This document shows positions 19,702 to 59,770 of a DNA stretch of 64,000 nucleotides, piece after piece. Both the position numbers and the translations under genes were made by a program. The notes below the pieces were generated by a model. The model had not been told where the DNA came from and did not search any database. It worked only from the letters and a program-made list of their open reading frames with translations. Location: positions 2,144,001 through 2,208,000 of the forward strand of contig CBDCDZ010000004.1 of assembly GCA_965215565.1 (NCBI GenBank). The letters run 5' to 3'. The first letter of the stretch is position 1. Each line of letters opens with the position of its first letter. The DNA is from Trueperaceae bacterium. GTDB taxonomy: Bacteria > Deinococcota > Deinococci > Deinococcales > Trueperaceae.

Positions 19702-19938
19702 ATGCCACACATCATCTGCGAGCCCTGCATCGGCGTGAAAGACCAGTCCTGCGTGGACGTCTGCCCCGTCGAGTGCATCTACGAAGCCGACGACCAGTTC
19801 TACATCCACCCCGAGGAGTGCATCGACTGCGGCGCGTGCGTGCCCGCCTGCCCGGTCTCAGCCATTTACCCGGAAGAGGACGTGCCCGAAGAGTGGGAGT
19901 CGTTCACGGCGCTGAATTACGAGTTATCGGGTTTGTAA
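19702..19938 (+). CDS. Dicluster ferredoxin (7Fe/8Fe type)
   Basis: CEPCIGVKDQSCVDVCPVECI and CIDCGACVPACPV. Confidence 0.95.
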   Translation: MPHIICEPCIGVKDQSCVDVCPVECIYEADDQFYIHPEECIDCGACVPACPVSAIYPEEDVPEEWESFTALNYELSGL

Positions 19939-19964
19939 TTACCTGACTTAATTTGCATTGCTTC

Positions 19965-20171
19965 GTAGGAGCGGGTTTGAAACCCGCCTTTACACTGTGC
20001 CATATTCGAACTGAGATAATATAGCAAGTATCATTTGGTTTGAGACGCTCTCACGATGTAGAACACCGTGTAGCACGCACATTTGAGAATGATACTTGCG
20101 CTATTCCAATCAGTACTTATGTTAATTGCTATACAGCGCTGATGTAGGGGTGATTCATGAATCACCCCTGC
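19965..20171. repeat. REP doublet interrupted by a family A element
   Basis: GTAGGAGCGGGTTTGAAACCCGCCTTTAC (19965-19993) and GTAGGGGTGATTCATGAATCACCCCTGC (20144-20171). Confidence 0.75.
20022..20131 (-). mobile_element. Family A element, copy 3
   Basis: Reverse complement TAGCAATT...GCAAGTATCATT...GTGCGTG...GTGAGAG...AATGATACTTGCTA. Confidence 0.7.
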
Positions 20172-20207
20172 GCCTTTTTGTGTCTCCGTGGGCTGTAGAC
20201 TGAACTC

Positions 20208-21113
20208 GTGGACGCCATCCAAACTGCCCTCAACGCCACCCTACCCGCCTTCTTCCTCATCGCTTTAGGCGCGTACGCTGATAAACTCTTCCCCGAACTC
20301 CATCTTCCTACCCTTACGCGCCTCACAGTCTACTTCATGATTCCGGCGCTCGTCTTTAACGCGGTGGCAAACACCTCTTTAACCCTCTCGTCGGCGTCCT
20401 TACTCTCGCTCGGGTATCTGCTCTACCTCATTGCACTAGGCGTCGTCTCGGCGCTCGGCTCGGTTGGCTTGAGCGGGGCGCAAACAAGAGGCGTCATCGT
20501 AACGAGTCTCTTTGGCAATACGGGAAATATGGGCTTGCCGATCACACTCTTTGCGTATGGGGAGGCGGGGCTCGAGCGCGCCGTGGTCATCTTCATGCTC
20601 TCGCTCGTACTGATGTTCGTCGTCGGACCAACCGTTTTAGCGGGAAGCGGGGAGAGTTTGCGCTCGAGGCTATTAGACGCGCTCAAGCTGCCGCCGATTT
20701 GGGCGACGCTCGCAGGTCTCGCTTTTACTCTCTTCGCCTGGGAGTTGCCAACGAGCGCAGCAAGAGGTGTGTCCCTCTTAGGTGACGCCGCCATTCCCGT
20801 GATGCTCCTCTCGCTCGGGCTGCAGATGCGCCGCTCGTGGGTGTGGGGCGTGGGGGCGTCGGCGCTCAGAGCGTCAGGGCTGCGGCTCGTCATCGGACCC
20901 TTTATCGCTTACGCGGTGGGCTGGCTCATCGGTTTGCGCGGTTTAGATTTGAATGTACTGACGCTAAGCGCCGCGATGCCCGCCGCTGTCACGATGTTCG
21001 TCGTCGCCGTAGAGGTGAAAGGCGATTACGAAGGGGTGGCGCGGACCGTCGTGGCGACAACGGTTGGTTCACTTGCGGCGATTATGTTGGTGCTCTACCT
21101 CTTGCCGAGTTGA
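20208..21113 (+). CDS. AEC (auxin efflux carrier) family transporter
   Basis: GNTGNMGLP, PPIWA, SAAMPAAV; about 10 TM segments. Confidence 0.9.
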   Translation: MDAIQTALNATLPAFFLIALGAYADKLFPELHLPTLTRLTVYFMIPALVFNAVANTSLTLSSASLLSLGYLLYLIALGVVSALGSVGLSGAQTRGVIVTSLFGNTGNMGLPITLFAYGEAGLERAVVIFMLSLVLMFVVGPTVLAGSGESLRSRLLDALKLPPIWATLAGLAFTLFAWELPTSAARGVSLLGDAAIPVMLLSLGLQMRRSWVWGVGASALRASGLRLVIGPFIAYAVGWLIGLRGLDLNVLTLSAAMPAAVTMFVVAVEVKGDYEGVARTVVATTVGSLAAIMLVLYLLPS

Positions 21114-21122
21114 TCAAAAAAA

Positions 21123-21146
21123 GAAGAGGTGACTTATCACCTCTTC
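21123..21146. terminator. Hairpin terminator between convergent genes
   Basis: GAAGAGGTGA-CTTA-TCACCTCTTC with flanking A-runs. Confidence 0.65.
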
Positions 21147-21164
21147 AAAATATAAGCTTAATTG

Positions 21165-21803
21165 TTAGAGGTTTTGCAACTTCTGATACGCCGCCTCCGC
21201 CCGCTGGCGCACCGCGTCGCTGTTCGAACGCCCGCCCATCATCATATGCATCTCTACGTGGCGGTCCACGTCGCCGAAGATGGAGCCCAAGACCTCGACC
21301 TCTTCGCGGGAGCGCAAGCTCGCGTCGTCGCGAAACATCGTCGTGTAAGCGTACTCGAACTGGCGGTAGTCTATGACGCCTGCTAAGTATTGCTCCAAGA
21401 CTTGCTTGTAAGGACCTAAGTCGCTCGAGCTTTTCTCCACGTTCCCAACAACTTCACCACTCGGCGGCACTTGCTCGAAACCCATGTCAAGCACTTCAGG
21501 CGTAATGTTCCAGTTGTCCACGTCGAAGACCGCTTCGCCCTCTTTGAACAGAATGACTTGCGGCGACTGGTGGACGATGCCTGTACGCTCCGCGATGAGG
21601 TTGCTCGCCGGACGCGCCTCCACCACACGGATGAGCCCGACCATAAGGTCTTCGCGCGGCTCCAGCTTCTCCTGCACAAACCCGAACCCTTGCATCGTCT
21701 TATGGCACGTGCCCGCCTTGAAGATCACGCTGGTGGGGTAGCGCTGCAAAAACGCCTCGGTTGCTTCGGTACTGTCTAAGTTGACCACTCGGTCTCTAAA
21801 CAT
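21165..21803 (-). CDS. YtxJ/BrxC-like monothiol bacilliredoxin with C-terminal helical extension
   Basis: IFKAGTC, RPASNLIAERTGIVHQSPQVILF. Confidence 0.75.
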   Translation of the reverse strand: MFRDRVVNLDSTEATEAFLQRYPTSVIFKAGTCHKTMQGFGFVQEKLEPREDLMVGLIRVVEARPASNLIAERTGIVHQSPQVILFKEGEAVFDVDNWNITPEVLDMGFEQVPPSGEVVGNVEKSSSDLGPYKQVLEQYLAGVIDYRQFEYAYTTMFRDDASLRSREEVEVLGSIFGDVDRHVEMHMMMGGRSNSDAVRQRAEAAYQKLQNL

Positions 21804-21866
21804 AAAAACTCCTTTACTGCCTTCATTTTAAGAAGTGACCTCTTGAGGGTATGTTATGTGGGAAGC

Positions 21867-21969
21867 AGCAATGAGTTGAAAGCAATCCAGTCGAGCTGGA
21901 CGGTACGGTGAGTAACGAGTGCAACCTAAAGGTTTTTCACTTTCAACTCATTGCTCGTTGCTCATTGCT
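21867..21969. repeat. Family B heptamer (GAGCAAT/ATTGCTC) hairpin repeat, carrying a 23-nt insert
   Basis: Homologous to the copies at 29258, 33386, 51765 and 59688. Confidence 0.8.
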
Positions 21970-21978
21970 ATTCCTTTA

Positions 21979-22008
21979 TTGACCTACCCCCCAAAACCTT
22001 GCTACACT
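21979..22008 (+). promoter_or_regulatory. tRNA promoter
   Basis: TTGACC-18nt-TACACT with a TG extension. Confidence 0.65.
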
Positions 22009-22020
22009 CTATTGCTCACA

Positions 22021-22130
22021 TAGGCTCACTGTAGCCACTGAGCTTGTACCACGCAGATATCATCTCTTGATGTGAGAGCTAAGCGATGTTCTACATTGTG
22101 AGATTGGCGCTGACCAGATGATACCTGCTA
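22021..22130 (+). mobile_element. Family A element, copy 4 (in the tRNA leader)
   Basis: TAGGCTCACTG...GCAGATATCATC...CTGACCAGATGATACCTGCTA. Confidence 0.72.
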
Positions 22131-22135
22131 TACCC

Positions 22136-22227
22136 GGAGAGGTGTCCGAGCGGTTTAAGGAGCACGCCTGGAAAGCGTGTGTGTGGGGTAACCTGCACCG
22201 AGGGTTCGAATCCCTCTCTCTCCGCCA
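22136..22227 (+). tRNA. tRNA-Ser(GGA)
   Basis: GGAGAGG acceptor, anticodon arm CACGC-CTGGAAA-GCGTG, long variable arm, GGTTCGAATCC, encoded CCA. Confidence 0.97.
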
Positions 22228-22230
22228 CCC

Positions 22231-22347
22231 TAATAGGTATCACCTACGCAGAGACGCGCTTAGCGGACAGAGCGGCGCGTACACTGAAGGGTGATACCTA
22301 CTTTATTTTACGGTTAGGGATACCCGTGTCGAGGACACAGAGTGCTA
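22231..22347 (-). mobile_element. Diverged family A element, copy 5 (tRNA trailer)
   Basis: TAGGTATCACC...GGTGATACCTA inverted pair (22234-22300). Reverse strand AGGTATCACCCTTCAGTGTACGCG resembles copy 2. Right boundary uncertain. Confidence 0.5.
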
Positions 22348-22391
22348 TCCCAAGCATAGATTATGGAGAGCGTTCGGGGGTTAGTTGAGCG

Positions 22392-23645
22392 CTAACTCCT
22401 GATTTGCCCCTCCCCTTCAATCAGATATTTGTGCGTCACCATCTCCGCTAACCCCATCGGACCCCTCGCGTGGAGTTTCTGCGTCGAGATGCCTATCTCC
22501 GCGCCGAAACCGAAGACGAATCCGTCCGTGAAGCGCGTCGAGGCGTTTACGTAGACCGCCGCCGCGTCTACCTCGTCTCCAAAACGTCGGGCGTTTTCAA
22601 CCGACTTGGTGAGGATGGCTTCGCTGTGCTGAGAGCCGTAGCGGTTGATGTGAGTGATGGCGTCCTCTACGCTGTCTACGACTTTGACGGCTAGCTCGAG
22701 GTCCAAATACTCCGTCTCCCAGTCGGCTTCGGTGGCGGCGCTCGCTCGGGGGTAGAGCCCCTGCGTCCGCTCGCATCCTCTCAGGGTGACGCCGAGTTCG
22801 CTGAGCGCCGAGAGCGCGCTCGGCAAGAACGTCTTCGCCACCTCTTCGTGTACTAAAAGCGTCTCCACGGAGTTGCATACGCCGGGGCGCTGCACCTTCG
22901 CGTTGATGACGATATCTTTCGCGTTCTCCAGGTCTGCCAAAGCGTCCACGAAAATGTGGCAGTTGCCGACGCCCGTCTCGATAACCGGGACTTTGGCGTT
23001 TTGCACGACGTGGTTGATCAGGGACGCGCCGCCACGCGGGATCACCAAATCCACCTTGCCCCTCGCCTCTAAAAGCTCGGTCACGAGCGCCCTGTCGGGC
23101 GAGTCGATGAGTTGAACGGCGTCTTTGGGCAAGCCGGCCTCTGCCAGAGCGCGGCGCATGGTGTCCACGATGACGCGGTTGCTCTCCAGCGCGTTGGCGG
23201 AGCCGCGCAGCACGGCGGCGCTGCCCGCTTTGAGCGCGAGCGTGGCGGCGTCTACGGTCACGTTCGGGCGCGACTCGTAGATCATCCCGATGACGCCGAA
23301 GGGGACCGTGACCTTCTGGACGCGCAGCCCATTGGGGAGCGTCCAGCCGTCCAACACGCGGCGCAAGGGGTCAGGCAGCGCGCCGACGAGGTGGACCGCG
23401 TCGGCGATGTCTTTGAGGCGGGCTCGAGATAACGTCAAGCGGTCGACGAGCGCGTCGGAGGTGCCTTTTCTGCGCTCGGCGGCGACGTCTTTTTCGTTGG
23501 CGCTCAGGATAGCCTCGGCGTGGGTTAGGAGGGCGGCGGCGATACTTTCTAAGGCGGCGTTGCGCTTGGCGCTAGCTAAGCTGCGACTGGCGCGCCTCGA
23601 GCGTTCTAAGAGCGACTCTAGATGGACAGGAGCGGTGAGTGACAT
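22392..23645 (-). CDS. proA: Gamma-glutamyl phosphate reductase
   Basis: IYESRPNVT, IPRGG, CNSVETLL, NASTRFTDG, ISTQKLHARGP; leaderless start MSLTAP. Confidence 0.95.
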   Translation of the reverse strand: MSLTAPVHLESLLERSRRASRSLASAKRNAALESIAAALLTHAEAILSANEKDVAAERRKGTSDALVDRLTLSRARLKDIADAVHLVGALPDPLRRVLDGWTLPNGLRVQKVTVPFGVIGMIYESRPNVTVDAATLALKAGSAAVLRGSANALESNRVIVDTMRRALAEAGLPKDAVQLIDSPDRALVTELLEARGKVDLVIPRGGASLINHVVQNAKVPVIETGVGNCHIFVDALADLENAKDIVINAKVQRPGVCNSVETLLVHEEVAKTFLPSALSALSELGVTLRGCERTQGLYPRASAATEADWETEYLDLELAVKVVDSVEDAITHINRYGSQHSEAILTKSVENARRFGDEVDAAAVYVNASTRFTDGFVFGFGAEIGISTQKLHARGPMGLAEMVTHKYLIEGEGQIRS

Positions 23646-24041
23646 GCTCGAGTATAGCCCAGCGCCCCGGCGCGTTCCAGCCCCCGTAAACGTGGCGGAC
23701 ACGGTACCGGTGCGGCGTTACCGAATCCTCTTTCTAGAACGCCGAAGAGAAGAAGCCCTAAAGCTTAGAGTATTGGCGGACCAGGTGGGAGGTCATGAGG
23801 AGTATTTTTTAGCCTACGCAAATGTCCACTAAGCGAGCGCGCAACGCGCGGGGAGGCCGAGAGCTTCGGAGCGGCTTTCTACTCGTTCGCTCTAAGCACT
23901 CCCTCTTCACCGAAACTCAGTTGATGTGACAAATATAACGCTTTGCGCAATCTCTCACATACTAGGGTAGTAAGTATATCTGTACCTAGAGATGAAGCGC
24001 GCGTAGCGATAATCTAAACGAATTAGAGGCAACGCCACCGC

Positions 24042-25070
24042 GTGCTTGACGAACTGCTTGATAGACGCTTGGACGAAACGCCAGAGAGGAGGAAGAAAGC
24101 CGTGCCGACTGACGCAGCATCTCACATAGAGGCCCGAATGCTCCTCGAGGCGTTCGACGCAGTGCCGCAGCAGATTGCGCTCTTGGACGAAAAGGGCGTC
24201 ATCACCTATGCGAATAGCGCGTGGGAGCGCTTCTCTGAGGAGTGTCCGCCCCTCCACGCGCAGCGCGGCGCGGACTACCTCAACGTGTGCAGAGAGGCGC
24301 GGGGCGCGGATTCGGTGTATGCGGAGCAAATCTACCGGGGTCTTCACGACGTTTTAGAGGGCGCGAGCGAGCAGTTCGTGCTCGAGTACGCCTGCCCCAC
24401 GAGTTCGGGCGAGAAGTGGTTCGTTACGCACATCAAGCCGCTCGAGACGGGCGGCGCGCTCATCTCACACCTGGATATGACGAGCCGCCGACGTTTCGAG
24501 CGGGAGATGGAGCGCGTCGCCTACACCGACGCGCTGACCGGCTTGCCCAACCGCCACGCCTTTTTTGAGCGCGCCGCGCAGATGATCGCCTCGGCGAAAC
24601 GGCACGCCCGCGAGTTACAGCTTCTCTACATCGACCTAAACGGCTTTAAGAGCGTCAACGACGCGCTAGGTCACGACGCGGGCGACCAGCTTCTCGTCGA
24701 AGTGGCGGCGCGTTTCAAGCGGCAGATGAGGGCGAGTGACCTCTTAGCGCGGCTCGGCGGCGACGAGTTCGTCTGCTTACTCGAGGTCCACCCTCACAGC
24801 GGTTATGCGCATAGTGGTTATACCAATAGTATCAAGCAAGTTGCCGAACGCTACGCCGCGTGCCTGGAAGCTCCTTTCAAGCTGGAGCGCGAAGAGGTGC
24901 GCCTAGCTGCGAGCGTCGGCGTCGCGCAGTTTCCGCAAGCGGGCAGCACGCTCCGCACTCTCCTCAAAAAAGCGGACAGCGAAATGTACAGAGACAAGCA
25001 GCAGAGCAAGGTAGGGCGAGAGGTCATGCTAGCCCAGAGGGTCAGCCGCGAGGATTTCAGACTGCGCTGA
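24042..25070 (+). CDS. PAS-GGDEF diguanylate cyclase
   Basis: PAS-like N-terminus, DALTGLPNR, DLNGFKSVND, RLGGDEF. Confidence 0.9.
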   Translation: MLDELLDRRLDETPERRKKAVPTDAASHIEARMLLEAFDAVPQQIALLDEKGVITYANSAWERFSEECPPLHAQRGADYLNVCREARGADSVYAEQIYRGLHDVLEGASEQFVLEYACPTSSGEKWFVTHIKPLETGGALISHLDMTSRRRFEREMERVAYTDALTGLPNRHAFFERAAQMIASAKRHARELQLLYIDLNGFKSVNDALGHDAGDQLLVEVAARFKRQMRASDLLARLGGDEFVCLLEVHPHSGYAHSGYTNSIKQVAERYAACLEAPFKLEREEVRLAASVGVAQFPQAGSTLRTLLKKADSEMYRDKQQSKVGREVMLAQRVSREDFRLR

Positions 25071-25151
25071 GCGCACGCCCGGACCACTTTCACAAAAATT
25101 ACCGCTGTGCACACCCGGAGCAGCAGAGCGGACGAAGCCCTGCTCACCCCT

Positions 25152-26705
25152 TTACTCGAGCGGCTTCGTCCAAGCTCCAGCTAGCATCGTTCCGTCAACG
25201 CTGAAGTCCAGAGTCTCTAGCGGGTTGGCTGAAAGCACCACCACATCCGCGTCGAACGTTCCGCGCAACACCCCCGAACGATGTTCGCGCGAAAGGGCGT
25301 AAGCCGCGCCGGACGTGTAGCCCGCGAGCGCTTGGGCGGGCGTCAGACATTCGGACGGATTGAATACACCGTCTACGCCCGCACGGGTGCAGGCGGCGCG
25401 GAGCCCTAACCTCACGTCGGGGCTCGCGACGGGCGTGTCCGAGCCGAGCGCGAGGTGTGCGCCCGCTTCTAAAAGAGATTTCATGGCGTACGCGCCGCTC
25501 GAACGCTCCGGCAACCACTCACGAATCTGCGGCGCGTCGAAGACGAGGTGATAGGGCTGCAGTGAGGTCACGAGACCCAGCTCGCCCGCGCGCAAGAGGT
25601 CATCGGGGTGGAGGTGTTGGGCGTGCTCGAGCCTCGGTCTGAGCCCCTGCTCCTGCCATTGCGGGCGCGTCCGCTCGAACGCATGGATGACCGTGCGGTT
25701 CGCCGCGTCGCCGATCGCATGAACGACGGGGGTGAGCCCAGCCTCCAAAACAAGGGGTAGGCGCTCCGCCAGAACCTCCGCGTCGTGGACGCTCACACCG
25801 TAGTTGTTCGTATTTGCGTAAGGCTCCAGCACCCACGCCGTCATGCTGCCTAGCGCACCGTCCGCGAAGAACTTCGCGCCGCCCACCATAAAGCGAGACC
25901 CGCCTTGCCCCGTCGCTAGACCGAGCGCGGCAGCGTGTTCGGCGTCCTCTTGCGGGATACACGCCCACACGCGCACCGGAAAGTCCTCGCGGCTCGCTTG
26001 CAGCGCCAACTGCCGCCAATAAGAGGTCGGCTCGTACGCCATGTGGTGAACCGTCGTGATGCCTAAGCGTGCTAAATCTTCCCCGCTCCGCCGGAGCGCG
26101 TCGGCGAGTTCGGCGTCGTTCGGCTCGGGGATGATATCTGAAACCAGGTGCGCCGCCCGCTCTAAGAGCAAGCCGCTCGGCTCGCCGTCCTTTCTCACCA
26201 CCGTGCCGCTCTTAGGGTCAGGCGTGCCCGCGTGGATGCCCGCAAGCTCCAGCGCTCGCGTATTCGCCCAGGCGCTGTGGTGGTCTTGCGACTGCAGAAA
26301 GACGGGGTGGTGCGGCGCGGCGCGGTCTAGCTCGGCTTTGTCTAGGCTCGAGACCCCCCAACGGCTCATGGAGAAGCCGGAGCCCAAAATCCACACGCCG
26401 GTGGGCGACGCTTTAGCGCGTTCCGCGACTCGCGTCATCGCCTCTTCCAGCGTCAGCGTACCTTGTAGATGCAGCCTATCCAACTCTAAGCCGTGCTGCG
26501 TGAGGTGAACGTGGCTATCGTGAAAGCCAGGTAGGAGGCAGCGCCCTTCTAAGTCAATACGCTCAGTGTTTTTATGCGCGAGGTCTAAGACCTCTTCGCC
26601 GCCCACCGCCAAGATGCGCTCGCCGCGCACGGCTAGAGCGCTCGCTTGCGGTTTGTCGGGGTCCATTGTTAACACCGTGCCGTTATAAAAGATGAGGTTG
26701 GGCAT
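25152..26705 (-). CDS. YtcJ-like metal-dependent amidohydrolase
   Basis: PGFHDSHVH, KFFADGALGS, HAIGD, RLEHAQ, GSDTPV. Confidence 0.9.
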   Translation of the reverse strand: MPNLIFYNGTVLTMDPDKPQASALAVRGERILAVGGEEVLDLAHKNTERIDLEGRCLLPGFHDSHVHLTQHGLELDRLHLQGTLTLEEAMTRVAERAKASPTGVWILGSGFSMSRWGVSSLDKAELDRAAPHHPVFLQSQDHHSAWANTRALELAGIHAGTPDPKSGTVVRKDGEPSGLLLERAAHLVSDIIPEPNDAELADALRRSGEDLARLGITTVHHMAYEPTSYWRQLALQASREDFPVRVWACIPQEDAEHAAALGLATGQGGSRFMVGGAKFFADGALGSMTAWVLEPYANTNNYGVSVHDAEVLAERLPLVLEAGLTPVVHAIGDAANRTVIHAFERTRPQWQEQGLRPRLEHAQHLHPDDLLRAGELGLVTSLQPYHLVFDAPQIREWLPERSSGAYAMKSLLEAGAHLALGSDTPVASPDVRLGLRAACTRAGVDGVFNPSECLTPAQALAGYTSGAAYALSREHRSGVLRGTFDADVVVLSANPLETLDFSVDGTMLAGAWTKPLE

Positions 26706-26720
26706 TAGATAAACGCGGCG

Positions 26721-27512
26721 CTACTCGCCCTTGAAGTTGGGCGCACGCTTCTCTCTAAACGCGCTCACCCCTTCGCGCACGTCGGCGGTATTCGAGGCGA
26801 CCTCTTGGAGTTTCGCCTCGAGCCCAAGCTGCGCCTCCAAGCCCTGATGCGCCGAGGCGTTCAGTTCCTCTTTCACCATAGCGAAGGCTTTCGTTGGACC
26901 TTGTGCCAAGCGCTGCGTCAGCTCCCACGCGGTCTGCGCGAAGTCCTCCGCCGGAACGATCTGCTCGCCTAAACCTAAGCTGAGCGCCTCCTCTGCGCCC
27001 ACCTTCCGCCCGCTATAGGTGAGTTCAAAGGCGCGTCCTCTGCCGACTAAACGCGGCAAGAAGTAGCTCGCCGAGGCGTCCATCACCAGACCGATGCCCG
27101 TAAAGCCCACCGCGAAAGCGGCGGAGGACGAAAGCAGGCGCGTGTCACAAGCGAGCGCCAGAGACATCCCCGCGCCCGCCGCCACGCCGTTGACGCCTGC
27201 GATAACAGGTTTGGGCATCGTCGCAATCGCCCTCACGACGGGGTTGTAGTAGGTCTCGATGAGGTCTTCGAAGTGGCCGTCTAGCGGCGTCGAGGCGAGG
27301 TCTGCGCCCGCCGAGAAGCCGCGCCCTGCGCCCGTGAGGAGAACGGCGCGAACGTCGTCCGCCTCCGCCGCCTCTTGCAAGGCGTCACGTAGTTCGCCCA
27401 AGAGGTCCAAAGAGAGGGCATTGAGCACATCGGGGCGGTTCAGAGTAACGCGCAGCGCGGCGTTTTGGTGGATCAGCTCGAGCGTCTCGACTTTAGGCGG
27501 GGCGTAAGCCAT
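26721..27512 (-). CDS. Enoyl-CoA hydratase/isomerase (PaaG-like)
   Basis: LNRPDVLNA, GRGFSAGADL, GVAAGAGMSLALACD. Confidence 0.9.
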   Translation of the reverse strand: MAYAPPKVETLELIHQNAALRVTLNRPDVLNALSLDLLGELRDALQEAAEADDVRAVLLTGAGRGFSAGADLASTPLDGHFEDLIETYYNPVVRAIATMPKPVIAGVNGVAAGAGMSLALACDTRLLSSSAAFAVGFTGIGLVMDASASYFLPRLVGRGRAFELTYSGRKVGAEEALSLGLGEQIVPAEDFAQTAWELTQRLAQGPTKAFAMVKEELNASAHQGLEAQLGLEAKLQEVASNTADVREGVSAFREKRAPNFKGE

Positions 27513-27907
27513 GAGGGGTCCTTTCGGAAGTGCGAGGTGTTGACGATTTGCGTCTCTTCAACCTGAGGTTCGCGGCGAATGTAGAAGCTGGGAGTAGGAA
27601 GTGAGAAGTTGGAAGGAAAAGCAAAGACCTAAAAGGTCCGCATTGTATAGGTGTCTTCTCGCGTCGCCTCGAGGTCGAATTATTGACGCAATCTAGGCGG
27701 GGTTGACATTTGCGCTTCGAGAAAACTATTTGATTTCGTGACAGACGCGATAAGTGAGAACAGTTCGCAAGCTCCTGACTACTAAATTCTGAATAATGAC
27801 TACTCCCGTGCTAGACGGCAAAAATCGCAACAAATGGGCTAAAGAGTCAATAGAACCTAGCTTTCAGCTTAAAGCCATACCTCTTCAGTGTCCCGTCTGT
27901 GTACCTC

Positions 27908-28237
27908 TTACTTTCGCTGGCTGAGGTCCAAGAGTACGTCGTAATCGTCGGGCATCGCCGCGTCGTCTAGCGCAGCTTTATTGCGCCGCACGTCGCCGCA
28001 TGTTTGACACTCGTGGACGATAATCCAGCCTTTTTTGCCGCTGTAGTCCACGTTGACGGGCTCCAAAATACCGCCGCAGTCACTCGCCCTGTCACCGGGA
28101 AACACGTCTACATGGAGCGAATAGAGGCAGTGCGGGCAGTGGTTGCGGTACGAGCCGTTGGCGAGGGGCGGCACGTCGCGCCCGCAGTGGACGCAGGCGA
28201 AGCCCGTGTTGGTGCCTTGGGCAGTGAAGCGGCGCAT
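27908..28237 (-). CDS. RNHCP domain protein
   Basis: Literal RNHCPHCLYSLHVD...PGDRA. Confidence 0.9.
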   Translation of the reverse strand: MRRFTAQGTNTGFACVHCGRDVPPLANGSYRNHCPHCLYSLHVDVFPGDRASDCGGILEPVNVDYSGKKGWIIVHECQTCGDVRRNKAALDDAAMPDDYDVLLDLSQRK

Positions 28238-28252
28238 AGGGACAGAATACAA

Positions 28253-28327
28253 GAGGAAAGAGGAAAGAGAAAAGGACTAAGGACTGAGAGAAAGGCCCTT
28301 GACCTCAGTCCTTTTCTCTCAGTCCTG
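28253..28327. repeat. Heptamer-based hairpin (GAGGAAA/AGGACTG versus CAGTCCT)
   Basis: AGGACTGAGAGAAAGG pairs with CCTTTTCTCTCAGTCCT. Confidence 0.55.
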
Positions 28328-28336
28328 TCAACTTCT

Positions 28337-29167
28337 CTATGGTGAGGTGCTCTGCAAGGTACCGGTGGTGATGCCGTACTCGAGCGCGGGCTCTTCCTCC
28401 CCTACAAAGATATTTACGGTGCGCTCGAAGCTCGGATTCATCGTGTCGGCGATCTGCGCGGTGACTTGTTGGTTGCCGTTTACGGTATCTGCTAAGTCTA
28501 ATGTGATTAACGCGCCGCAACCGTACTGCGCCAAGAGGTCACGGCTCACCGCGACTTGACGCCAGGGCTGCAAGGGGATGCTGCACGCACCCGACTCGGC
28601 GGTGATGAACGCGAAACCGACACGGTTAAGGTTGACTGCGCCTACCGGGGCAGCTTGTACCTCTTCCGAAGAGGTTGCCACTTCGGTCTGCGTCGCAGCG
28701 TCGCCCGCTTGCGCCTCCTCCGCGCTCACCTCGGCATCTTGCGCAGGCTCAGCGTCTACTTGCGCAGCGTCCTCGCTCGAGCCGCCTTCTGCTTGCGCTG
28801 CGCTATCTGCTGCGCTGCCCTCTACGTCTCCCTCGGCAGACGTACCGGCGCTCGCCTCGTCAGGCGTCACGTCGACCGCGCTGACCTCTTCTGAGAGTGC
28901 CTCTTCGCCGCCGACCTCTTCTGAGGATTCGTTCTGTGCGGTTTCTCCCTGTACAGTTTCTCCGGGTGCTCCGGGCTGCTCCGCCTGGTTCCCCGACGCA
29001 TCCTCTGAAGGAATCACCTCGTCATCCGCAGTTTGCTCCGCGCCCGGCGGGTTGTCCGCCGCCCCGCCACCCCGCATAGGCGCGGCGCTCAGGGCGAGCA
29101 CTAAGATGGCGACGAGCAAGACGCCGATTCCGGCGAGGAGGGCAAGGTCAATCTGACGCTGATTCAT
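28337..29167 (-). CDS. Membrane-anchored protein with acidic linker and C-terminal 3D/DPBB-like domain
   Basis: N-terminal TM, E/A/D-rich linker, VAVSRDLL...IADTM...VNIF...ALEYG, similar to the 60540 protein. Confidence 0.7.
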   Translation of the reverse strand: MNQRQIDLALLAGIGVLLVAILVLALSAAPMRGGGAADNPPGAEQTADDEVIPSEDASGNQAEQPGAPGETVQGETAQNESSEEVGGEEALSEEVSAVDVTPDEASAGTSAEGDVEGSAADSAAQAEGGSSEDAAQVDAEPAQDAEVSAEEAQAGDAATQTEVATSSEEVQAAPVGAVNLNRVGFAFITAESGACSIPLQPWRQVAVSRDLLAQYGCGALITLDLADTVNGNQQVTAQIADTMNPSFERTVNIFVGEEEPALEYGITTGTLQSTSP

Positions 29168-29257
29168 ACCCCTATAGTGAGCTTCTTGGTGTGAGAATGT
29201 CAATATCTTGTAGTGGGTCTGTTTCATGAACGACTTGCGGGGTTACGTCATTATAAA

Positions 29258-29325
29258 GTTGAAAGCAATGAGCAACGAGTGAACCTCTTAAGACTCATTG
29301 CTCGTTGCTCACTCCTCGTCGCTCA
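29258..29325. repeat. Family B heptamer hairpin repeat (no insert)
   Basis: GTTGAAAGCAATGAGCAACGAGT...ACTCATTGCTCGTTGCTC. Confidence 0.8.
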
Positions 29326-29380
29326 AAACAATGTAGCGCCTTCACTTGCACCTCTTCACGTGAACGCTCAGCATAAAGCT

Positions 29381-29581
29381 ATGGATTTTGAAGATGCGAT
29401 GCTCTGGGGAATTGGCGCGGTGGCGCTGCTCTTTATCGGACTCCTCGCGTTCGGCGCGCCGCTCTTTTTGAGCTTGGGGCTCGGCCTACTGGGGGGCGCA
29501 GGGGCGACGTTTTATATGTACAGGCGGGGCAATAAGCCTGAGGTGAAGAAGCGGGACGTAGGCAGCGAGGAGCAAGAGTAA
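29381..29581 (+). CDS. Small membrane protein
   Basis: MDFEDAMLWG, two TM segments, charged tail. Confidence 0.6.
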   Translation: MDFEDAMLWGIGAVALLFIGLLAFGAPLFLSLGLGLLGGAGATFYMYRRGNKPEVKKRDVGSEEQE

Positions 29582-29848
29582 GGCTCGAGCTTCTATTTAT
29601 CCAGCGCAAGTGAACTGGTTTCGGCTCTCGAGTCGCCCTCGCGACTTTTATTGGCAGCTTTTAGAAGTTCTATAGGCGTTAGACATTTTCGGCACTACTA
29701 TCTAGGCGCTCTACACGCCTCCCACGTGCTGCGAACTGTCTGGGTAAGCCTCGAGACGCGCCACCTCTTCGCCCCGTCCTACACTACAGAAAGTGAACAC
29801 TTATAAAGCAAATGCAGTGTCCCAGAGGCATCTTCTCGAGAGGTTGAT

Positions 29849-31006
29849 ATGAACATCGCGGTACTCCTCCACAGCAGCGCGGGCGGCAGCGGCGTCGTCG
29901 CCACCGAACTCGGGCTCTGCTACGCCAAGATGGGACACAGCGTCCACTTCGTCGCCAACCGCGTGCCCTTCCGCCTAACTGAGTCGGGGCAGGCGAACGT
30001 CTACTATCACCAGGTGGAGAGCATGTCCTACCCGCTCTTCGACGCGCCCCTAACCACCTTGGCGGAAGCGTCGAAGCTCGCTGAAGTGATTGAGGAGTAC
30101 GGCGTCGAGGTCATCCACGCGCACTACGCCATCCCGCACGCGGCGGCGGCGGTGATGGCTCGAGACATGGTCCACGCGGACCCCAAACCCGTCGTCGTGA
30201 CGACGCTGCACGGCACAGACGTTACCCTGGTTGGGCTAGACCGCGCCTATTTGCGCGCCACGCAGTATTCCATCGAACGCTCCGACGTCGTCACCGCCGT
30301 CAGTCAGTATCTGGCGGACTACACGCGCAGTGAGATGGGCGTGAAGCGCGACATCATGGTCGTGCCGAACGCGGTGGACCACGCCCGCTTCAAACCGCAA
30401 GGACCCAAGGAGCTGCGCCAGCGCTACGCCCACCCCGACGAAAAACTCGTCGTCCACGTTTCCAACTTTCGTCCGCTCAAGCGCGTGGACGACGTGGTCC
30501 GCACCTTCGCGCGCGTCGCGGAAGAGGTCGGCGCGCGGCTGCTGATGGTGGGCGACGGTCCCGAGCGGCAAAAGGCGCTCTCGCTCGCCGCCGAACTCAA
30601 CATCGGCGGGCGCGTCTCCTTCTTGGGCTCGTTCCCGCGCGTCGAGGACATCTTCGCGATCAGCGACCTCTTCTTGCTGCCGAGCACCGAGGAGTCGTTC
30701 GGCTTGGCGGCGTTAGAGGCGATGGCGTCGGGCGTGCCCGTCGTCGCGAGTCGCGTTGGCGGTATACCCGAAGTCGTCGTGGACGGCGAGACGGGCTTTC
30801 TCTGCGCGCCCAAAGACGTCGCGGCGATGGCGGAAGCGTCCTTGAAGCTCCTTACAGATAGCGCGCTGCACGCGCGCATGAGCCACGCGGCGCGCTCGAG
30901 GGCGACGGACTGCTTCAGCGAGAACGAGGTGGTGCCGCTCTACACGCAGGCTTACGAGCGGGCTTTGGCGCGTTCGCCGAGAGCAACCGTGGCGAGCGGC
31001 GCGTAA
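29849..31006 (+). CDS. bshA: N-acetyl-alpha-D-glucosaminyl L-malate synthase
   Basis: [51 protein letters not shown]. Confidence 0.95.
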
Positions 31007-31986
31007 GGAACTGCATCTACAGCGAGGCTGAGGGAGCTGAATAGGGGCTCAGCCAGCCCCACACGCAACCGCTCGTGCGCCGCGAGCGCAATCATCGCGC
31101 CGTTGTCCGTCGCCAGTGAGAGGGGCGGCATGTGCACCTCCAGCGCCGTTTCCGCCAGCCGCTCACGCAACCGCCGGTTCGCCGCCACACCGCCCGCGAC
31201 GACGAGCCGCCTGTGCCCTGCCGCCTGCGCCGCCCGGAGCGTCACGCTGACCAGGCTCTCCACCGCCACGCGCTCGAAACTCGCCGCGACGTCGGCGCGT
31301 TCTATCTCGGGTTGCTTTTGCAGGAGGACCGAGACCGCCGTTTTAAGCCCGCTAAACGAGAAGTCGAAGCCCGTTTGGGTGCGCAGCGGCACGGTGAAGT
31401 TTACCGCGTGCGCGTCACCCGCTTCGGCGAGTTGGCTCAGCGCGGGTCCGCCCGGATAGCCGAGCCCCAGAAGCCGCGCCACCTTGTCGAAGGCTTCACC
31501 CGCTGCGTCATCGCGGCTGTGCCCGAGCGCGGCGTACGCGCCCCACGCCTTTACATCGAAGAGGCTCGTGTGTCCGCCCGAAGCGATGAGGCAGAGAAAG
31601 GGCGGCTGCACGCTGCCCCCATTTGAGCCGAGGCTCGAGGCGATGTGTCCCTCGAGGTGATGAATGGGTAAAAAGGGCAACTCCCGCGCCCACGCCAACG
31701 CTTTGGCGTAGTTCAGACCGACCAAGAGCGCCCCGACGAGTCCGGGACCATACGTCGCGGCGACGGCGGTGACATCGTCTAACGCGACACCCGCCTCCGC
31801 CAAGGCGCGCCGCACCACCTCGCCAATGACCGAGAGGTGCTCGCGGCTCGCCTGCTCGGGCATGACGCCGCCGAAGGGCGCGTGCAGCGCAGTCTGCGAG
31901 GCGATGACGTTGGCGATGACCTCACCGTTTCTGACGACGCCAACGCCCGTGTCGTCACAAGAGGTGTCGATGCCTAAAATAATCAC
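30952..31986 (-). CDS. tsaD: tRNA N6-threonylcarbamoyltransferase
   Basis: GIDTSCDDT, HHLEGH, SGGHT, DDAAGEAFDK, TDNGAMIA. Confidence 0.96.
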   Translation of the reverse strand: MIILGIDTSCDDTGVGVVRNGEVIANVIASQTALHAPFGGVMPEQASREHLSVIGEVVRRALAEAGVALDDVTAVAATYGPGLVGALLVGLNYAKALAWARELPFLPIHHLEGHIASSLGSNGGSVQPPFLCLIASGGHTSLFDVKAWGAYAALGHSRDDAAGEAFDKVARLLGLGYPGGPALSQLAEAGDAHAVNFTVPLRTQTGFDFSFSGLKTAVSVLLQKQPEIERADVAASFERVAVESLVSVTLRAAQAAGHRRLVVAGGVAANRRLRERLAETALEVHMPPLSLATDNGAMIALAAHERLRVGLAEPLFSSLSLAVDAVPYAPLATVALGERAKARS

Positions 31987-32022
31987 GCCGTAAGTCTATC
32001 AGTCAGAATAAGCTTTTACTGT

Positions 32023-32157
32023 TAGCAGTTCCACGACACACTGAGATAGTTGAACGCAGGTCTCAGCTCGCAGAGCTAGCGGAATTTCATCCCTTAAAGT
32101 GCGTGCTAAACAGCGTTTCATAAAGTGAGAGTGTCTCTGACCAGATGATACCTGCTA
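32023..32157 (+). mobile_element. Family A element, copy 6, with a 24-nt internal insert
   Basis: Colinear with copy 7 except for extra bases 32061-32084. Confidence 0.72.
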
Positions 32158-32171
32158 TGTTAAGGGAGCCT

Positions 32172-32229
32172 ATCAGCAAGTCAGCATTTCAGCGGGTCAG
32201 AAAAACCTCACCTGCTGGCTAGCTGACAC
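32172..32229. repeat. Octamer (TCAGCnnn) hairpin repeat
   Basis: TCAGCAAG TCAGCATT TCAGCGGG TCAG...GCTGACAC; related to 61270-61332 in inverse orientation. Confidence 0.6.
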
Positions 32230-32256
32230 GCTCTCAATCTCTGGTAAACTGGCGGG

Positions 32257-33390
32257 GTGACGTTCTCTGAAGTCCTGCGCGACTACCACCGCCTCGAGCC
32301 CCATCCCCTCCAAAACGGACGCTACGTAACGAAAAAGGGCGTGCGCGGCTACCCTGACGTTCCGGCGGGCGCGACCTTATTAGCGAAGGAAGCGGACCTT
32401 TCCGCCGACAAGGTGAGCGACTTGACGGGCAGCGCGGGGTTCGTAGCGTTGGCGGCGCTCAGGCAAGGGGCGAGGGAGGTGCGCGTGGTGGAAAGCTCGA
32501 GAGCTGCCCTGCGCTGCGCTAAGGAGACGTTCTCGGACAAACCTGTGACGCTCGTCGCGGGCGCACCTTGGGACGTTCCCGCTGAATCCACCGACCTCGT
32601 ATGCCTCGCACCTCAAACGGACAAGGGAACGGCGAGGGTTCTCGCCGAGTTCGCGGGGGCGCACGCCGCCCTAAAGCAGGGCGGCGTCGCCTACTTCGTG
32701 ATGCACAAAGACGGGGGCGCGAAGCGTTACGAAAAGCGGGCGGCAGCGCTTTTTGGCAGCAGCAAGGTCATCGCAAAAGAGGGTGGGTGGCGGCTTTCTC
32801 GAGCCATTAAACAAGAGGTCACTGACCGAGAGGATAGAGAAGAGGTGCAGCCCTTAGCCTTCGAGGTTGCAGGGCTGAATGTAGAGGCGTTTCCAGGGAT
32901 TTACGCAGCGGGCAAGCTCGACCCTGGCACGGCGTTTTTGCTCGAAACCTCAAACCTCTCTCCCCTATCGGGAAAGCGCGTCCTAGACCTCGGCTGCGGC
33001 TACGGGCTTCTAGCCCTCAAAGCCTCGCTCGAGGGCGCGTCGGTAACGGCATTAGACGACGATTTGCTCGCCGTGCGCAGCGCCTACCGAAACGCTGAGC
33101 GCTACGGCTTGGACGTGCGCGCGTTGCACTCCGATGTCGATTCGAAAATTCAGGACGAAATGTTCGACACCGTGCTGATGAACCCCCCTTTTCACATCGG
33201 TAAGCAAGTCGTGATGGATGTGCCGCGCGCCTTTTTAGCCGCTGCTCACGCGCACTTGCGCCCCGGCGGAACCCTTACGCTCGTCGCAAACAAGGCGCTC
33301 CCTTACGAACGGGACTTGGCACGGTGGGCGTCATTCGAAACATTGGCGGTGAACGGACAATTTAAGGTGTTAAAGGCAGTGAAAAGTTAA
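32257..33390 (+). CDS. RsmC-like class I SAM-dependent methyltransferase (duplicated domain)
   Basis: PGIYAAGKLDPGT, VLDLGCGYG, NPPFH. Confidence 0.88.
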   Translation: MTFSEVLRDYHRLEPHPLQNGRYVTKKGVRGYPDVPAGATLLAKEADLSADKVSDLTGSAGFVALAALRQGAREVRVVESSRAALRCAKETFSDKPVTLVAGAPWDVPAESTDLVCLAPQTDKGTARVLAEFAGAHAALKQGGVAYFVMHKDGGAKRYEKRAAALFGSSKVIAKEGGWRLSRAIKQEVTDREDREEVQPLAFEVAGLNVEAFPGIYAAGKLDPGTAFLLETSNLSPLSGKRVLDLGCGYGLLALKASLEGASVTALDDDLLAVRSAYRNAERYGLDVRALHSDVDSKIQDEMFDTVLMNPPFHIGKQVVMDVPRAFLAAAHAHLRPGGTLTLVANKALPYERDLARWASFETLAVNGQFKVLKAVKS

Positions 33391-33500
33391 AAGCAATCCA
33401 GTCGAGCTGGTGTACGTTAGTTTTTGCGAAGCAAACGGTACGGTGAGCAATGAGTGAAAAGCTTTAGACTCATTGCTTTCAACTCATTGCTCATTGCTCA
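33386..33500. repeat. Family B heptamer hairpin repeat with nested 23-nt and 24-nt inserts
   Basis: Alignment to the other B copies; overlaps the stop codons of both flanking genes. Confidence 0.8.
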
Positions 33501-34398
33501 GAACGTAGCCTCCACTCGGCTCGAGCCCCAACACCTGCCCCCCGTTCACAAAGGCTTGCATCTCACGCCTGACCTCTCGCGTCACCTCGCCCAAGCTGAT
33601 CGCCGCGAGCGTCGGTCCTGCACCCGAAAGGAAGGCGGCGCTTGCGCCTACCTCTAAGAGGCGCTGTCGACACTCGGCTAAACCCGGAATGAGCGGTTCG
33701 CGGTAGGGCTCGTGGAGCACGTCTTGCGCGGCGACGCGCAGCAGTTCGGGCTTGTTGAGGGCGACGGCAGCGGTCCAGAGGGCGGTGCGGCTCGCGCTAT
33801 AGATAGCGTCCGCGCGGGCGTAACTCGCGGGCAAGGCGGCTCTCGCCTCGCTCGTCAAGAGTTCGAAGTCGGGCACGGCGAAGCTGAAGCGCCAGTCGCT
33901 CGGCAGAGGTAAAGTTTGGCAGAGATAGCCCCCCTCCGCCCGCGCGCTCACCGTGAAGCCGCCGTAGACCGCCGGGGCGACGTTGTCGGGGTGCCCTTCG
34001 ATGTCGGCGGTAAGCTGAAACACGCCGTCTCGCCCCAGCCGCTCGCCCGTCCTCTCGCTTATCATTGTGTCCGCTAAAGCCGCGCCCGCGACGAGCGCGG
34101 CTGACGAGGAGCCTAGCCCTCTCGCCAGTGGAATGGGATTGTGAGCCTCCAACTGCACGCAGGGCGCACGTTCCCCTGATGCCGCGTAGACCGCCCGAAA
34201 GCCTCTGTGGATGAGGTTGTCGGGTGTGTCGGACACGCTACCCTCACCCTGGTAGATGAGGTGGTTTTCGGACGATAAGGTGGCGCTGACCTCGAGGTAG
34301 AGCCCCACCGCAATCCCTAAACAGTCGAAGCCCGGTCCCAAATTCGCACTCGTTGCGGGCACGCGAACCGTGATGCGCTCCGTCATAGCATCCGTCAC
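33484..34398 (-). CDS. thrB: Homoserine kinase
   Basis: VPATSANLGPGFD, IPLARGLGSS, EGHPDNVAP, LSGAGPT. Confidence 0.96.
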   Translation of the reverse strand: MTDAMTERITVRVPATSANLGPGFDCLGIAVGLYLEVSATLSSENHLIYQGEGSVSDTPDNLIHRGFRAVYAASGERAPCVQLEAHNPIPLARGLGSSSAALVAGAALADTMISERTGERLGRDGVFQLTADIEGHPDNVAPAVYGGFTVSARAEGGYLCQTLPLPSDWRFSFAVPDFELLTSEARAALPASYARADAIYSASRTALWTAAVALNKPELLRVAAQDVLHEPYREPLIPGLAECRQRLLEVGASAAFLSGAGPTLAAISLGEVTREVRREMQAFVNGGQVLGLEPSGGYVLSNEQ

Positions 34399-35921: not shown

Positions 35922-35986
35922 GGGATTAGTTTACGCGATTGGGGTGAGGTTGGGCGGGGCTCGCTAGCGTTGAGGTACCTTTTGGA

Positions 35987-51191: not shown

Positions 51192-51758
51192 ATGACTCAG
51201 GTTGCACCCACCGAGCCCGGTACATTAACCGTCCGCCCTGCCACCGCGAGTGACGTTCCCGACATCTTCAACCTCATCGGTACGTGGGCGGCGCAGGGCA
51301 AGATGCTGGTACGCCCTATGACCAATATCTTCGAGAACCTGCGCGACTTCTACGTGGCGGAGATTCAGAGGGAGAGCGGCGCGGAGTTCGCAGGTAGCGC
51401 GGCGCTGCACATCCTCTGGGGCGACATCGCCGAGGTGCGCGGGCTCGCCGTTAAACCCGAAATCACGGGCGGCGGCATCGGCAAGAAGCTCGTCGCCGCG
51501 TGCGAGAGCGAAGCGCGGCGCATCGGTATCCCGACGCTCTTCGCCTGGACGTACTCAGTCGAGTTTTTCGAGCGGTGCGGCTTTCACCTCATCGACAAAA
51601 GCAGAGACCTCCACCCGAGGGTGTGGTCCGAATGTCTGCGCTGCCCCTTTTTTGTCGGCTGCAACGAGAACGGGATGCTCAAGAGGTTGGAGGGCGTGCC
51701 GATGCCTAAAGATTTGCCTACGCCGCCACCTACGCAGGTGCCGCCGGGAATTAAGTAG
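51192..51758 (+). CDS. GNAT N-acetyltransferase (short ArgA-like)
   Basis: IFENLRDF, AEVRGLAV, GGGIGKKLV, VWSECLRCP. Confidence 0.85.
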   Translation: MTQVAPTEPGTLTVRPATASDVPDIFNLIGTWAAQGKMLVRPMTNIFENLRDFYVAEIQRESGAEFAGSAALHILWGDIAEVRGLAVKPEITGGGIGKKLVAACESEARRIGIPTLFAWTYSVEFFERCGFHLIDKSRDLHPRVWSECLRCPFFVGCNENGMLKRLEGVPMPKDLPTPPPTQVPPGIK

Positions 51759-51764
51759 TTTCTC

Positions 51765-51831
51765 GAGCAATAAGCAATGAGTCCCGAGCAATGAGCAATG
51801 AGTGAAAATCTTTAGCCTCGTTGCTTTCAAC
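51765..51831. repeat. Family B heptamer hairpin repeat
   Basis: GAGCAAT tandem units...CTCGTTGCTTTCAAC. Confidence 0.75.
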
Positions 51832-59687: not shown

Positions 59688-59755
59688 AACAATGAGTTAA
59701 AAGCAATGAGCAACGAGTGAAAAAAGCATCGAACTCGTTGCTCATTGCTTTCAAC
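59688..59755. repeat. Family B heptamer hairpin repeat (no insert)
   Basis: GTTAAAAGCAATGAGCAACGAGT...ACTCGTTGCTCATTGCTTTCAAC. Confidence 0.8.
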
Positions 59756-59770
59756 TTCTCTAAAGAGGTG

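What the first reader, a model, noticed from the sequence alone, without database searches (positions are those of the whole stretch)
21887..33444. Nested 23-24-nt hairpin micro-inserts inside other repeats: candidate ultra-small mobile elements
Seen by aligning repeat copies. Empty family B sites read AAAGCAAT|GAGCAACGAG (29258, 59688). Copies at 21867 and 33386 carry the same 23-mer CCAGTCGAGCTGGACGGTACGGT at that junction (21887-21909). In the 33386 copy a second, different 24-mer TGTACGTTAGTTTTTGCGAAGCAA (33411-33434) sits inside the first. A third 24-mer TCTCAGCTCGCAGAGCTAGCGGAA (32061-32084) interrupts the stem of family A copy 6. Each insert is a mini-hairpin (CCAG/CTGG, TTGC-GAA-GCAA, AGCTC-GCA-GAGCT) plus a ~10-nt tail, with no evident target duplication beyond a 1-nt ambiguity. 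Established: very small (20-30 nt) dispersed mobile repeats occur in cyanobacteria and their mechanism is unresolved. Inference: a similar fixed-length, precise insertion process acts in this Deinococcota lineage, and its enzyme is unknown.
Basis: partly seen in the sequence, partly recalled or inferred. Interest (0 to 1): 0.75.

Follow-up and report, generated by a model that had tools for sequence, protein, structure and literature searches.

The report
Nested twin-hairpin mobile DNA micro-elements
This bacterium carries hundreds of 20-27-base DNA pieces, each folding into two back-to-back mini-hairpins, that have slotted precisely into other repeats, into each other and into genes; they share their build with a cyanobacterial element whose way of moving is still unknown, and their loops suggest they travel as single-stranded DNA.

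Summary
Insert 1 (M1, 22-23 nt) has 50 copies, 34 carrying further inserts. The same 22-mer occurs in 19 Chloroflexota records. Insert 2 belongs to a T-class of about 220 copies in over 100 variants, found at high copy only in this genus. Insertion, not deletion, is shown by an 8-codon insert in a HicA-like gene and by M1 in transposase genes. T-class elements share one build: a 5' T, then two abutting hairpins with GNA/GNNA loops, inserted 5' of an A with no duplication (71 of 100 versus 7 in shuffles). The 21-nt HIP1 inserts of Nostoc (SDR5) have this same build. Best model: a single-stranded DNA nicked dumbbell moved by a one-strand cut-and-join enzyme acting in trans. No candidate enzyme was present in every carrier, and a circular-folding test did not favour the true ends. 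Insert 3 occurs at one host site only. The scan has noted SDR-like nests in at least 42 other genomes (unchecked). Verdict: new variant of SDR; mechanism open but testable.

The parts
21886..21908 (+).
   Evidence: boundary
21863..21971 (.). Family B heptamer palindrome hosting M1; same sequence family as the arms flanking a four-helix-bundle (PF05635) gene in G002
29256..29311 (.). Family B copy, empty junction
32023..32157 (+). Family A repeat (about 110 nt, inverted ends, about 250 copies) hosting insert 3
32061..32087 (+). Insert 3, S family, 24 nt net; registers 32061-32084 or 32064-32087; seen at this family-A site only
33385..33499 (.). Family B copy overlapping the stop of the 32257-33390 ORF, hosting M1 with a nested T element
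33397..33443 (+). M1 split at the junction of its two hairpins
33411..33434 (+). Insert 2, T-class (SDR5-type build): 5' T, 2 nt, hairpin with GTTA loop, 2 nt, hairpin with GAA loop, inserted 5' of A
   Evidence: architecture
51754..51831 (.). Family B copy, no M1
59690..59759 (.). Family B copy, empty junction

Best explanation
These are non-autonomous ultra-small mobile elements of the SDR kind. SHOWN: they are discrete 19-27-nt units inserted at many unrelated sites, in fixed register, with no target duplication (T-class) or at most one shared pyrimidine (M1). What is conserved is a fold, two hairpins with no linker and usually one extra 5' T, which brings the first and last bases together. 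INFERRED: the moving form is single-stranded DNA folded as a nicked (or closed) dumbbell protected by GNA/GNNA mini-hairpins. A trans-acting enzyme does one single-strand cut-and-join: it opens a target strand 5' of A (T-class) or 5' of a pyrimidine (M1) and joins the element in, and replication fixes the insert in one daughter. Targets are mostly loops and junctions of other hairpin-rich mobile repeats, and much of the copy number then comes from riding on those hosts. My best guess for the chemistry is HUH/Y1 (TnpA-REP-like). Odds: independently inserted units about 0.95; ssDNA twin-hairpin intermediate about 0.65; HUH enzyme about 0.35.
For: Polarity: an 8-aa in-frame insert in a HicA-like gene is absent from 5 of 5 homologues, and M1 frameshifts an IS gene that has an empty paralogue. 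Target rule: the base after the insert is A in 63 of 65 element-site pairs while the base before varies (G31, A17, C13, T4). Geometry: 5' overhang = spacer + 1 in 71 of 100 distinct T-start inserts with a terminal stem, versus mean 7.3 and maximum 18 in 1000 shuffles; six stem types covary (AC/GT 48, GC/GC 13, AT/AT 5, CT/AG 3, CC/GG 1, AG/CT 1). Loops: 64 of 71 first loops and 44 of 71 second loops are GNA or GNNA; GNA 43 versus its reverse complement 9 among 93 triloops. GNA/GNNA mini-hairpins are far more stable as DNA than as RNA, resist nucleases and bind SSB poorly (PMC13037366, passages). M1 covaries at 16-22 (CG 163, TA 51 of 245 contexts) and 3-13 (CG 236, AT 6), which makes one 6-bp helix if its ends are joined. 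Tandem head-to-tail M1 copies exist. No transcription-strand bias (M1 12/13, T 60/58). RVT_1 found in 1 of 6 carrier genomes. A subclass-2.4-like RAYT is in 8 of 9 carriers versus 6 of 33 non-carrier Trueperaceae. TnpA-REP enzymes cut ssDNA at CT or CA sites with a GTAG tetranucleotide 2 nt from a 5-bp stem (PMC8266576), a layout like the GNAG of T-class elements.
Against: Circular folding with shifted ends did not favour the true boundaries under DNA or RNA parameters; the review says current models fail on these hairpins, but the test still gave no support. G002, the genome richest in unsplit M1 (36 copies; 97% complete), had no Y1/RAYT match in three searches, and its mutS and mutL abut where G000 has the RAYT. 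That RAYT carries its own different palindrome. It was also not found in G367 or G368. The C of the CT/CA rule is not conserved at these targets. No gene flanked by the elements stands out and no free intermediate was seen. RNA parameters favour the opposite strand in 92 of 137 variants (mean gaps 0.1-0.3 kcal). Variants are related, so counts overstate independent events; the 245 M1 contexts include chance matches from a degenerate scan. No orthologous filled/empty pair of the same host copy was found at 4 window sites.
Confidence: 0.5

Rival explanations
1. Host junction-processing enzymes do the job. The inserted element and its flanks form a four-way junction, and a topoisomerase IB, a resolvase plus ligase, or a tyrosine recombinase excises or captures the nuclease-resistant dumbbell in one strand exchange. 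No dedicated transposase exists.
For: The T-class hot spot in M1 is exactly the base-pair step opposite M1's own end junction. No mobile-element enzyme tracks all carriers. TopIB is in 4 of 4 carrier versus 7 of 32 non-carrier Trueperaceae.
Against: TopIB was found in 0 of 5 Chloroflexota carriers (completeness not given). Integron integrase was found in 0 of 3 genomes of this genus. A universal enzyme does not explain patchy bursts: the T pattern has 40-57 copies in 3 genomes and 0-1 in 58, and the M1 tail has 43 copies in one and at most 7 in 300 other genomes of that class. RuvC, YqgF and ligases were not tested.
Confidence: 0.2
2. A few old insertions were multiplied by duplication of host repeats and gene conversion between repeat copies, so the units are passengers rather than independently mobile.
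For: 37 of 50 M1 copies share the family-B junction. All 77 S copies sit at one family-A site. Hosts turn over as whole units between species.
Against: The same 22-mer lies in unrelated coding and non-coding contexts and in two phyla. At least 28 different inserts occupy one M1 junction. T elements occupy 28 site strings, plus a gene. This rival probably explains copy number and the S family, not the origin of sites.
Confidence: 0.12
3. RNA intermediate with reverse transcription, the route I recall Elhai et al. 2008 favouring for SDRs (paper not held).
For: RNA parameters make the opposite strand more stable in 92 of 137 T variants. G001 has four copies of an RT gene.
Against: RVT_1 was not found in 5 of 6 carriers, including the 99.99% complete G000. 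Loops are GNA triloops and GNYA as well as GNRA tetraloops, the DNA mini-hairpin pattern. No transcription-strand bias, although host copying could blur one.
Confidence: 0.1
4. The small four-helix-bundle (Avd-like, PF05635) protein whose gene is flanked by the heptamer hosts is the missing factor or its partner.
For: Present in 8 of 9 carriers versus 7 of 32 non-carrier Trueperaceae. Family B flanks this gene in G002, with an M1 in one arm. The Nostoc plasmid annotation lists three 'four helix bundle' genes.
Against: Its flanks are the heptamer repeats, which explains the link without the micro-elements. In G000 it is flanked by family F, not B. No catalytic activity is known to me (recalled). 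Not found in G061.
Confidence: 0.08

Closest known systems
SDR elements of Nostoc punctiforme, especially SDR5 (Elhai et al. 2008, Genome Res 18:1484; not held, recalled; the SDR5 site is confirmed by a passage of PMC4390886)
   Same: 21-27 nt, precise insertion, nesting, heptamer-repeat hosts (last two recalled). Tested here: the 21-nt inserts between bases 3 and 4 of HIP1 on plasmid pNPUN01 have the T-class build (5' T, overhang 3/spacer 2, two GNA hairpins, followed by A).
   Different: No sequence identity: the exact M1 22-mer had no cyanobacterial hit among 63 GTDB loci. Hosts are Deinococcota and Chloroflexota. Targets are many N|A sites, not HIP1. M1 and S have the big hairpin first. 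The evidence here points to DNA rather than RNA.
REP/REPIN with TnpA-REP (RAYT) (PMC8266576, PMC6006769, PMC3116915; passages)
   Same: Short palindrome with a GNAG tetranucleotide 2 nt 5' of a 4-5-bp stem; ssDNA logic; no duplication; RAYT 2.4-like genes in most carriers.
   Different: Single units, not inverted doublets; no cognate RAYT flanked by these elements; -1 C not conserved; the resident RAYTs carry other palindromes; G002 lacks one.
IS200/IS605 ssDNA transposons and their gene-less derivatives
   Same: Strand-specific insertion without duplication; enzyme contacts with unpaired T in hairpins (PMC8266576 passage).
   Different: Ten times shorter; the conserved target base lies 3' of the insertion; no autonomous partner found.
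Folded-ssDNA integration by tyrosine recombinases (integron attC, CTX phage; recalled)
   Same: One strand exchange on a folded single strand, resolved by replication; M1 sits in attC-like separators of Chloroflexota gene arrays.
   Different: A 6-8-bp helix looks too small for two recombinase boxes; no IntI found in this genus; attC-like sites are hosts, not the element.

Membership tests
SDR (SDR5-type) | Dispersed unit of about 21-27 nt | tested here: met
   19-27 nt, mostly 21-24; the length range for SDRs is recalled
SDR (SDR5-type) | Precise insertion with empty sites and no duplication | tested here: met
   112 T copies with an exact empty allele; coding examples
SDR (SDR5-type) | Nesting and residence in heptamer repeats (recalled) | tested here: met
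   34 of 50 M1 nested; 37 of 50 at the heptamer junction
SDR (SDR5-type) | Same secondary structure as the Nostoc element, kept by compensatory changes | tested here: met
   T-class only: a sequence-free scan gave 111 versus 4 (G000) and 3 versus 0 (350 kb of the Nostoc plasmid, all HIP1-type inserts); covariation. M1 and S have a different hairpin order.
SDR (named families SDR1-8) | Sequence identity with a named family | tested here: inconclusive
   Unrelated to the Nostoc HIP1 inserts; no cyanobacterial hit for M1; the consensus table of the 2008 paper could not be read
SDR5 proper | Insertion into HIP1 | tested here: not met
   None of the 28 site strings is HIP1
REP/REPIN-RAYT | Invariant GTAG tetranucleotide 5' of the palindrome | tested here: not met
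   The second base varies: first loops GAA 32, GCA 10, GTA 9, GGA 4 of 71
REP/REPIN-RAYT | Cognate RAYT gene flanked by the repeat | tested here: not met
   Both Y1 domains of G000 carry other palindromes; none found in G002
REP/REPIN-RAYT | Cleavage by TnpA-REP in vitro | not testable with these tools
   needs biochemistry
REP/REPIN-RAYT | Inverted doublet as the unit | tested here: not met
   Empty-allele events are single 19-27-nt units
Classical MITE | Terminal inverted repeats and a target duplication | tested here: not met
   T elements show zero junction ambiguity at many sites; M1 at most 1 nt
Retroelement | Reverse transcriptase in carriers | tested here: not met
   RVT_1 in 1 of 6 carriers; only this one profile was used

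The most novel reading that the evidence does not exclude
A distinct mode of mobility: 21-24-nt single-stranded DNA dumbbells, perhaps covalently closed, that are recognised by shape rather than sequence. They are excised and inserted by one strand exchange of an enzyme not yet linked to transposition, work the same way in Nostoc, Deinococcota and Chloroflexota, and can cross phyla with an unchanged 22-nt sequence.
Probability: 0.3. Interest if true: 0.9.

Novelty: new variant of a known kind. Interest (0 to 1): 0.7.

Why it matters
How SDRs, among the smallest mobile DNAs described, move has been open since 2008; a 2015 paper still only speculates on SDR5 insertion. This genome gives more than 100 natural variants that define the substrate (5' T plus two abutting DNA mini-hairpins), a target rule and a short list of candidate enzymes. 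The same build is present in a cultured cyanobacterium, so the question can be tested with oligonucleotides and knockouts. A duplication-free writer of about 21-24 nt would also be a source of in-frame peptide inserts and a possible editing chemistry. Searches of the held library found no paper describing this build or such elements in Deinococcota or Chloroflexota. The 2008 paper itself could not be read and may already describe the two-hairpin fold.

Tried and rejected
Circular minimum-energy folding with shifted ends gave no support for the true ends. A loose T-class scan had 373 hits versus 256 in the control and was discarded. The first genome-wide insertion scan timed out and was redone on repeat loci only, so solo inserts are under-counted; events with GC-rich anchors or heptamer content were filtered out before the counts. 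Autonomous partner: none among genes between same-family repeats, orphan family-A ends or genes flanked by micro-elements. Candidate enzymes not matching all carriers: Y1_Tnp, RAYT, RVT_1, TopIB, IntI, PF05635 (71), Rnl1-like RNA ligase (2 of 43 genomes, broken in G000), GIY-YIG (present also in the non-carrier G005). IS110 has 7 copies in G000 and was not profiled. No M1 in viral contigs. One T variant scanned in GTDB gave 2 loci. The architecture scan found 0 hits in 339 kb of Chloroflexota and 237 kb of metagenome loci. Replication-strand test uninformative because GC skew is weak. Rfam gave only a tRNA in 19000-36000. Sequencing runs: no RNA holder listed; the contigs laid showed no empty allele at the three sites, and X1/X2 may be the source sample. 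Elhai 2008 not held; one literature search returned only irrelevant papers. A survey of the build across cyanobacterial genomes was not done.
Full report
OBSERVATION. The three inserts are present as stated. The window is C4:2144001-2208000 of a 4.49-Mb genome. Related records holding the same element are titled Trueperaceae. Family letters A, B, C, F, G and the class names M1, T and S are working labels.

M1 (INSERT 1). There are 50 copies in G000 versus 0 in the reversed genome. Sixteen are simple, 34 carry inserts at the junction of the two hairpins, and 28 different inserts occur there. Thirty-seven follow the family-B heptamer junction; the other 13 lie in other repeats, inside T elements or in an IS gene. 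Nine apparent reversed copies at the B junction proved to be chance matches. The unsplit 22-mer is in 4 of 61 relatives: G000 12, G001 21, G002 36 and G035 4 copies (G035 is unpublished, and all statements on it rest on that genome). An exact GTDB scan gave 63 loci: 23 in two Trueperaceae records, 39 in 19 Chloroflexota records and 1 in an alphaproteobacterial record, against about 0.1 expected by my arithmetic. It is patchy: the tail motif has 43 copies in G062 and at most 7, near background, in 300 other genomes of that class. In Chloroflexota M1 sits in separators of same-strand gene arrays that look like attC sites, in palindromes beside Y1 transposase genes, and in head-to-tail tandems (these labels are my recognition, not database calls). 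Variants compensate at positions 16-22, 3-13 and 1-15. Joined end to end, M1 is a perfect 6-bp dumbbell with two 5-nt loops; the same pairs also fit two stacked hairpins in a linear strand.

T-CLASS (INSERT 2). A strict scan gave 251 hits versus 29 in the reversed control, in 137 distinct sequences. One T pattern has 57, 40 and 49 copies in G000, G001 and G002 and 0-1 in 58 other relatives. For 112 copies an exact empty allele exists. They comprise 55 sequences at 28 site strings; the next base is A in 63 of 65 element-site pairs and the preceding base is free. From motif-free insertion events, 82 of 255 distinct inserts fit a two-hairpin geometry versus 10.7 in shuffles. Among 100 that start with T and end in a stem, 71 have a 5' overhang exactly one base longer than the spacer between the hairpins, versus 7.3 (maximum 18) when the 5' part is shuffled. 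The element is therefore one extra T plus two abutting hairpins of about 7-8 bp in total. Loops are mostly GNA or GNNA (64 of 71 and 44 of 71). That is the DNA mini-hairpin motif, much less stable as RNA, nuclease-resistant and a poor SSB ligand (PMC13037366, passages).

S FAMILY (INSERT 3). There are 77 copies in 44 variants with compensating hairpins, all at one site in family A. The matching empty flank occurs in 19 of 209 empty sites. Independent mobility is not shown.

DIRECTION. A HicA-like gene (C4:643126; label recalled) has a 24-nt in-frame T insert lacking in 5 of 5 homologues, and the G000 gene also ends in a different frame. M1 frameshifts two copies of an IS3-like gene whose paralogue at C4:3670829 is empty, and interrupts reading frames in L093, L096, L099 and L120. 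At four window sites the relatives differ by whole host repeats or by different nests, so no clean orthologous pair was obtained.

HOSTS. Family B has the same sequence as the arms around a PF05635 four-helix-bundle gene in G002; family F flanks that gene in G000 and G001. Family A has about 250 copies and no partner gene was found.

LINK TO SDR. The 2008 SDR paper is not held, so its content is recalled. A passage of PMC4390886 says SDR5 inserts precisely between the third and fourth bases of HIP1. In 350 kb of Nostoc plasmid pNPUN01 the 21-nt inserts at that position read 5' T, two bases, GNA hairpin, two bases, GNA hairpin, then A. A sequence-free scan for this build found 3 versus 0 there and 111 versus 4 in G000, but 0 in the Chloroflexota and metagenome loci held. 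The T-class is thus SDR5-type in structure, though unrelated in sequence and target. M1 and S reverse the hairpin order.

MECHANISM. Shown: discrete units, exact junctions, a target base rule, a conserved fold, DNA-type loops and no transcription-strand bias. Inferred: a ssDNA intermediate with abutting ends, one strand exchange, and fixation by replication. Against: circular folding did not favour the true ends, RNA parameters favour the other strand, and no intermediate was seen. Enzyme profiles, as carriers / non-carrier Trueperaceae: RAYT 2.4-like 8 of 9 / 6 of 33, absent from G002; PF05635 8 of 9 / 7 of 32; TopIB 4 of 9 / 7 of 32; IntI 3 of 9 and none in this genus; RVT_1 1 of 6 carriers. 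Kin are not independent, most genomes are incomplete, and 'non-carrier' means only that the M1 pattern was not found. I favour HUH chemistry only weakly. TnpA-REP cuts ssDNA at CT or CA beside short palindromes tagged by GTAG (PMC8266576, first part and passages), and subclass 2.4 is abundant in Cyanobacteria (PMC6006769, passages), but the resident RAYTs carry other palindromes.

LITERATURE AND EARLIER NOTES. PMC3116915 (passages) names SDR origins as unresolved. PMC3733652 (passages) lists GTAG repeats in Cyanobacteria and Chloroflexi without these elements being named in the passages seen. No supplements were read. Earlier scan notes report SDR-like nests in at least 42 genomes (46 findings, 8 shown); I did not check them, and a look-up by this sequence found none.

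VERDICT. Real, independently mobile micro-elements; a new variant of the SDR kind, with a cross-phylum structural rule that makes the open mechanism testable. Interest 0.7.

Noticed in passing
G000 C4:3784734-3788051 (L001): A Y1 transposase domain sits in frame inside a large restriction-modification-like gene, followed by peptides encoded by family-C palindromes.
   Followed up: partly
G000 C4:3590035-3590553 (L181); G001 L182: A RAYT subclass-2.4-like gene with an internal palindrome (family G, window about 20145-20169) lies between mutS-like and mutL-like genes; these genes abut in G002.
   Followed up: yes
window 9407-9520, 19971-20169, 22021-22133, 32023-32157, 53217-53328: Family A: about 250 copies of a 110-nt repeat with inverted ends, fixed-length variable segments and a 31-nt insert; no autonomous partner found.
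   Followed up: partly
L061, L062, L063, L064, L065, L066: Four-helix-bundle (PF05635) genes are each flanked by a different heptamer-repeat palindrome, and the gene-less palindromes are dispersed repeat families B and F. This looks like an undescribed mobile cassette type.
   Followed up: partly
window 35995-36063, 53815-53883; G000 C4:1550429, 2115255, 2311366, 3438706: Family C repeats begin with the same end sequence as a 4-copy IS1-like element (label recalled); one copy splits an Rnl1-like RNA ligase gene at C4:2114967-2116785.
   Followed up: partly
L045 and L046 (G002:C2 and C1): G002 holds two versions of the region orthologous to window 21165-22224; the C1 version is nearly identical to G001, suggesting mis-binning or recent transfer.
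   Followed up: no
L149 (G061:C6:36001-56000), L150, L153: Chloroflexota cassette-like arrays have very long separators stuffed with several other 17-31-nt nested hairpin units.
   Followed up: partly
G000 C4:3663719-3663985: A small ORF carries a 21-nt T element in frame (7 codons); no homologue was checked.
   Followed up: no
G000 C4 (e.g. 279749, 1694761): Two 27-nt insert families also nest in S and T elements; one fits the twin-hairpin build exactly, the other does not.
   Followed up: partly
window 51027-51135 and 61187-61244: Further palindromic repeats of other families, one with a T-like start.
   Followed up: no
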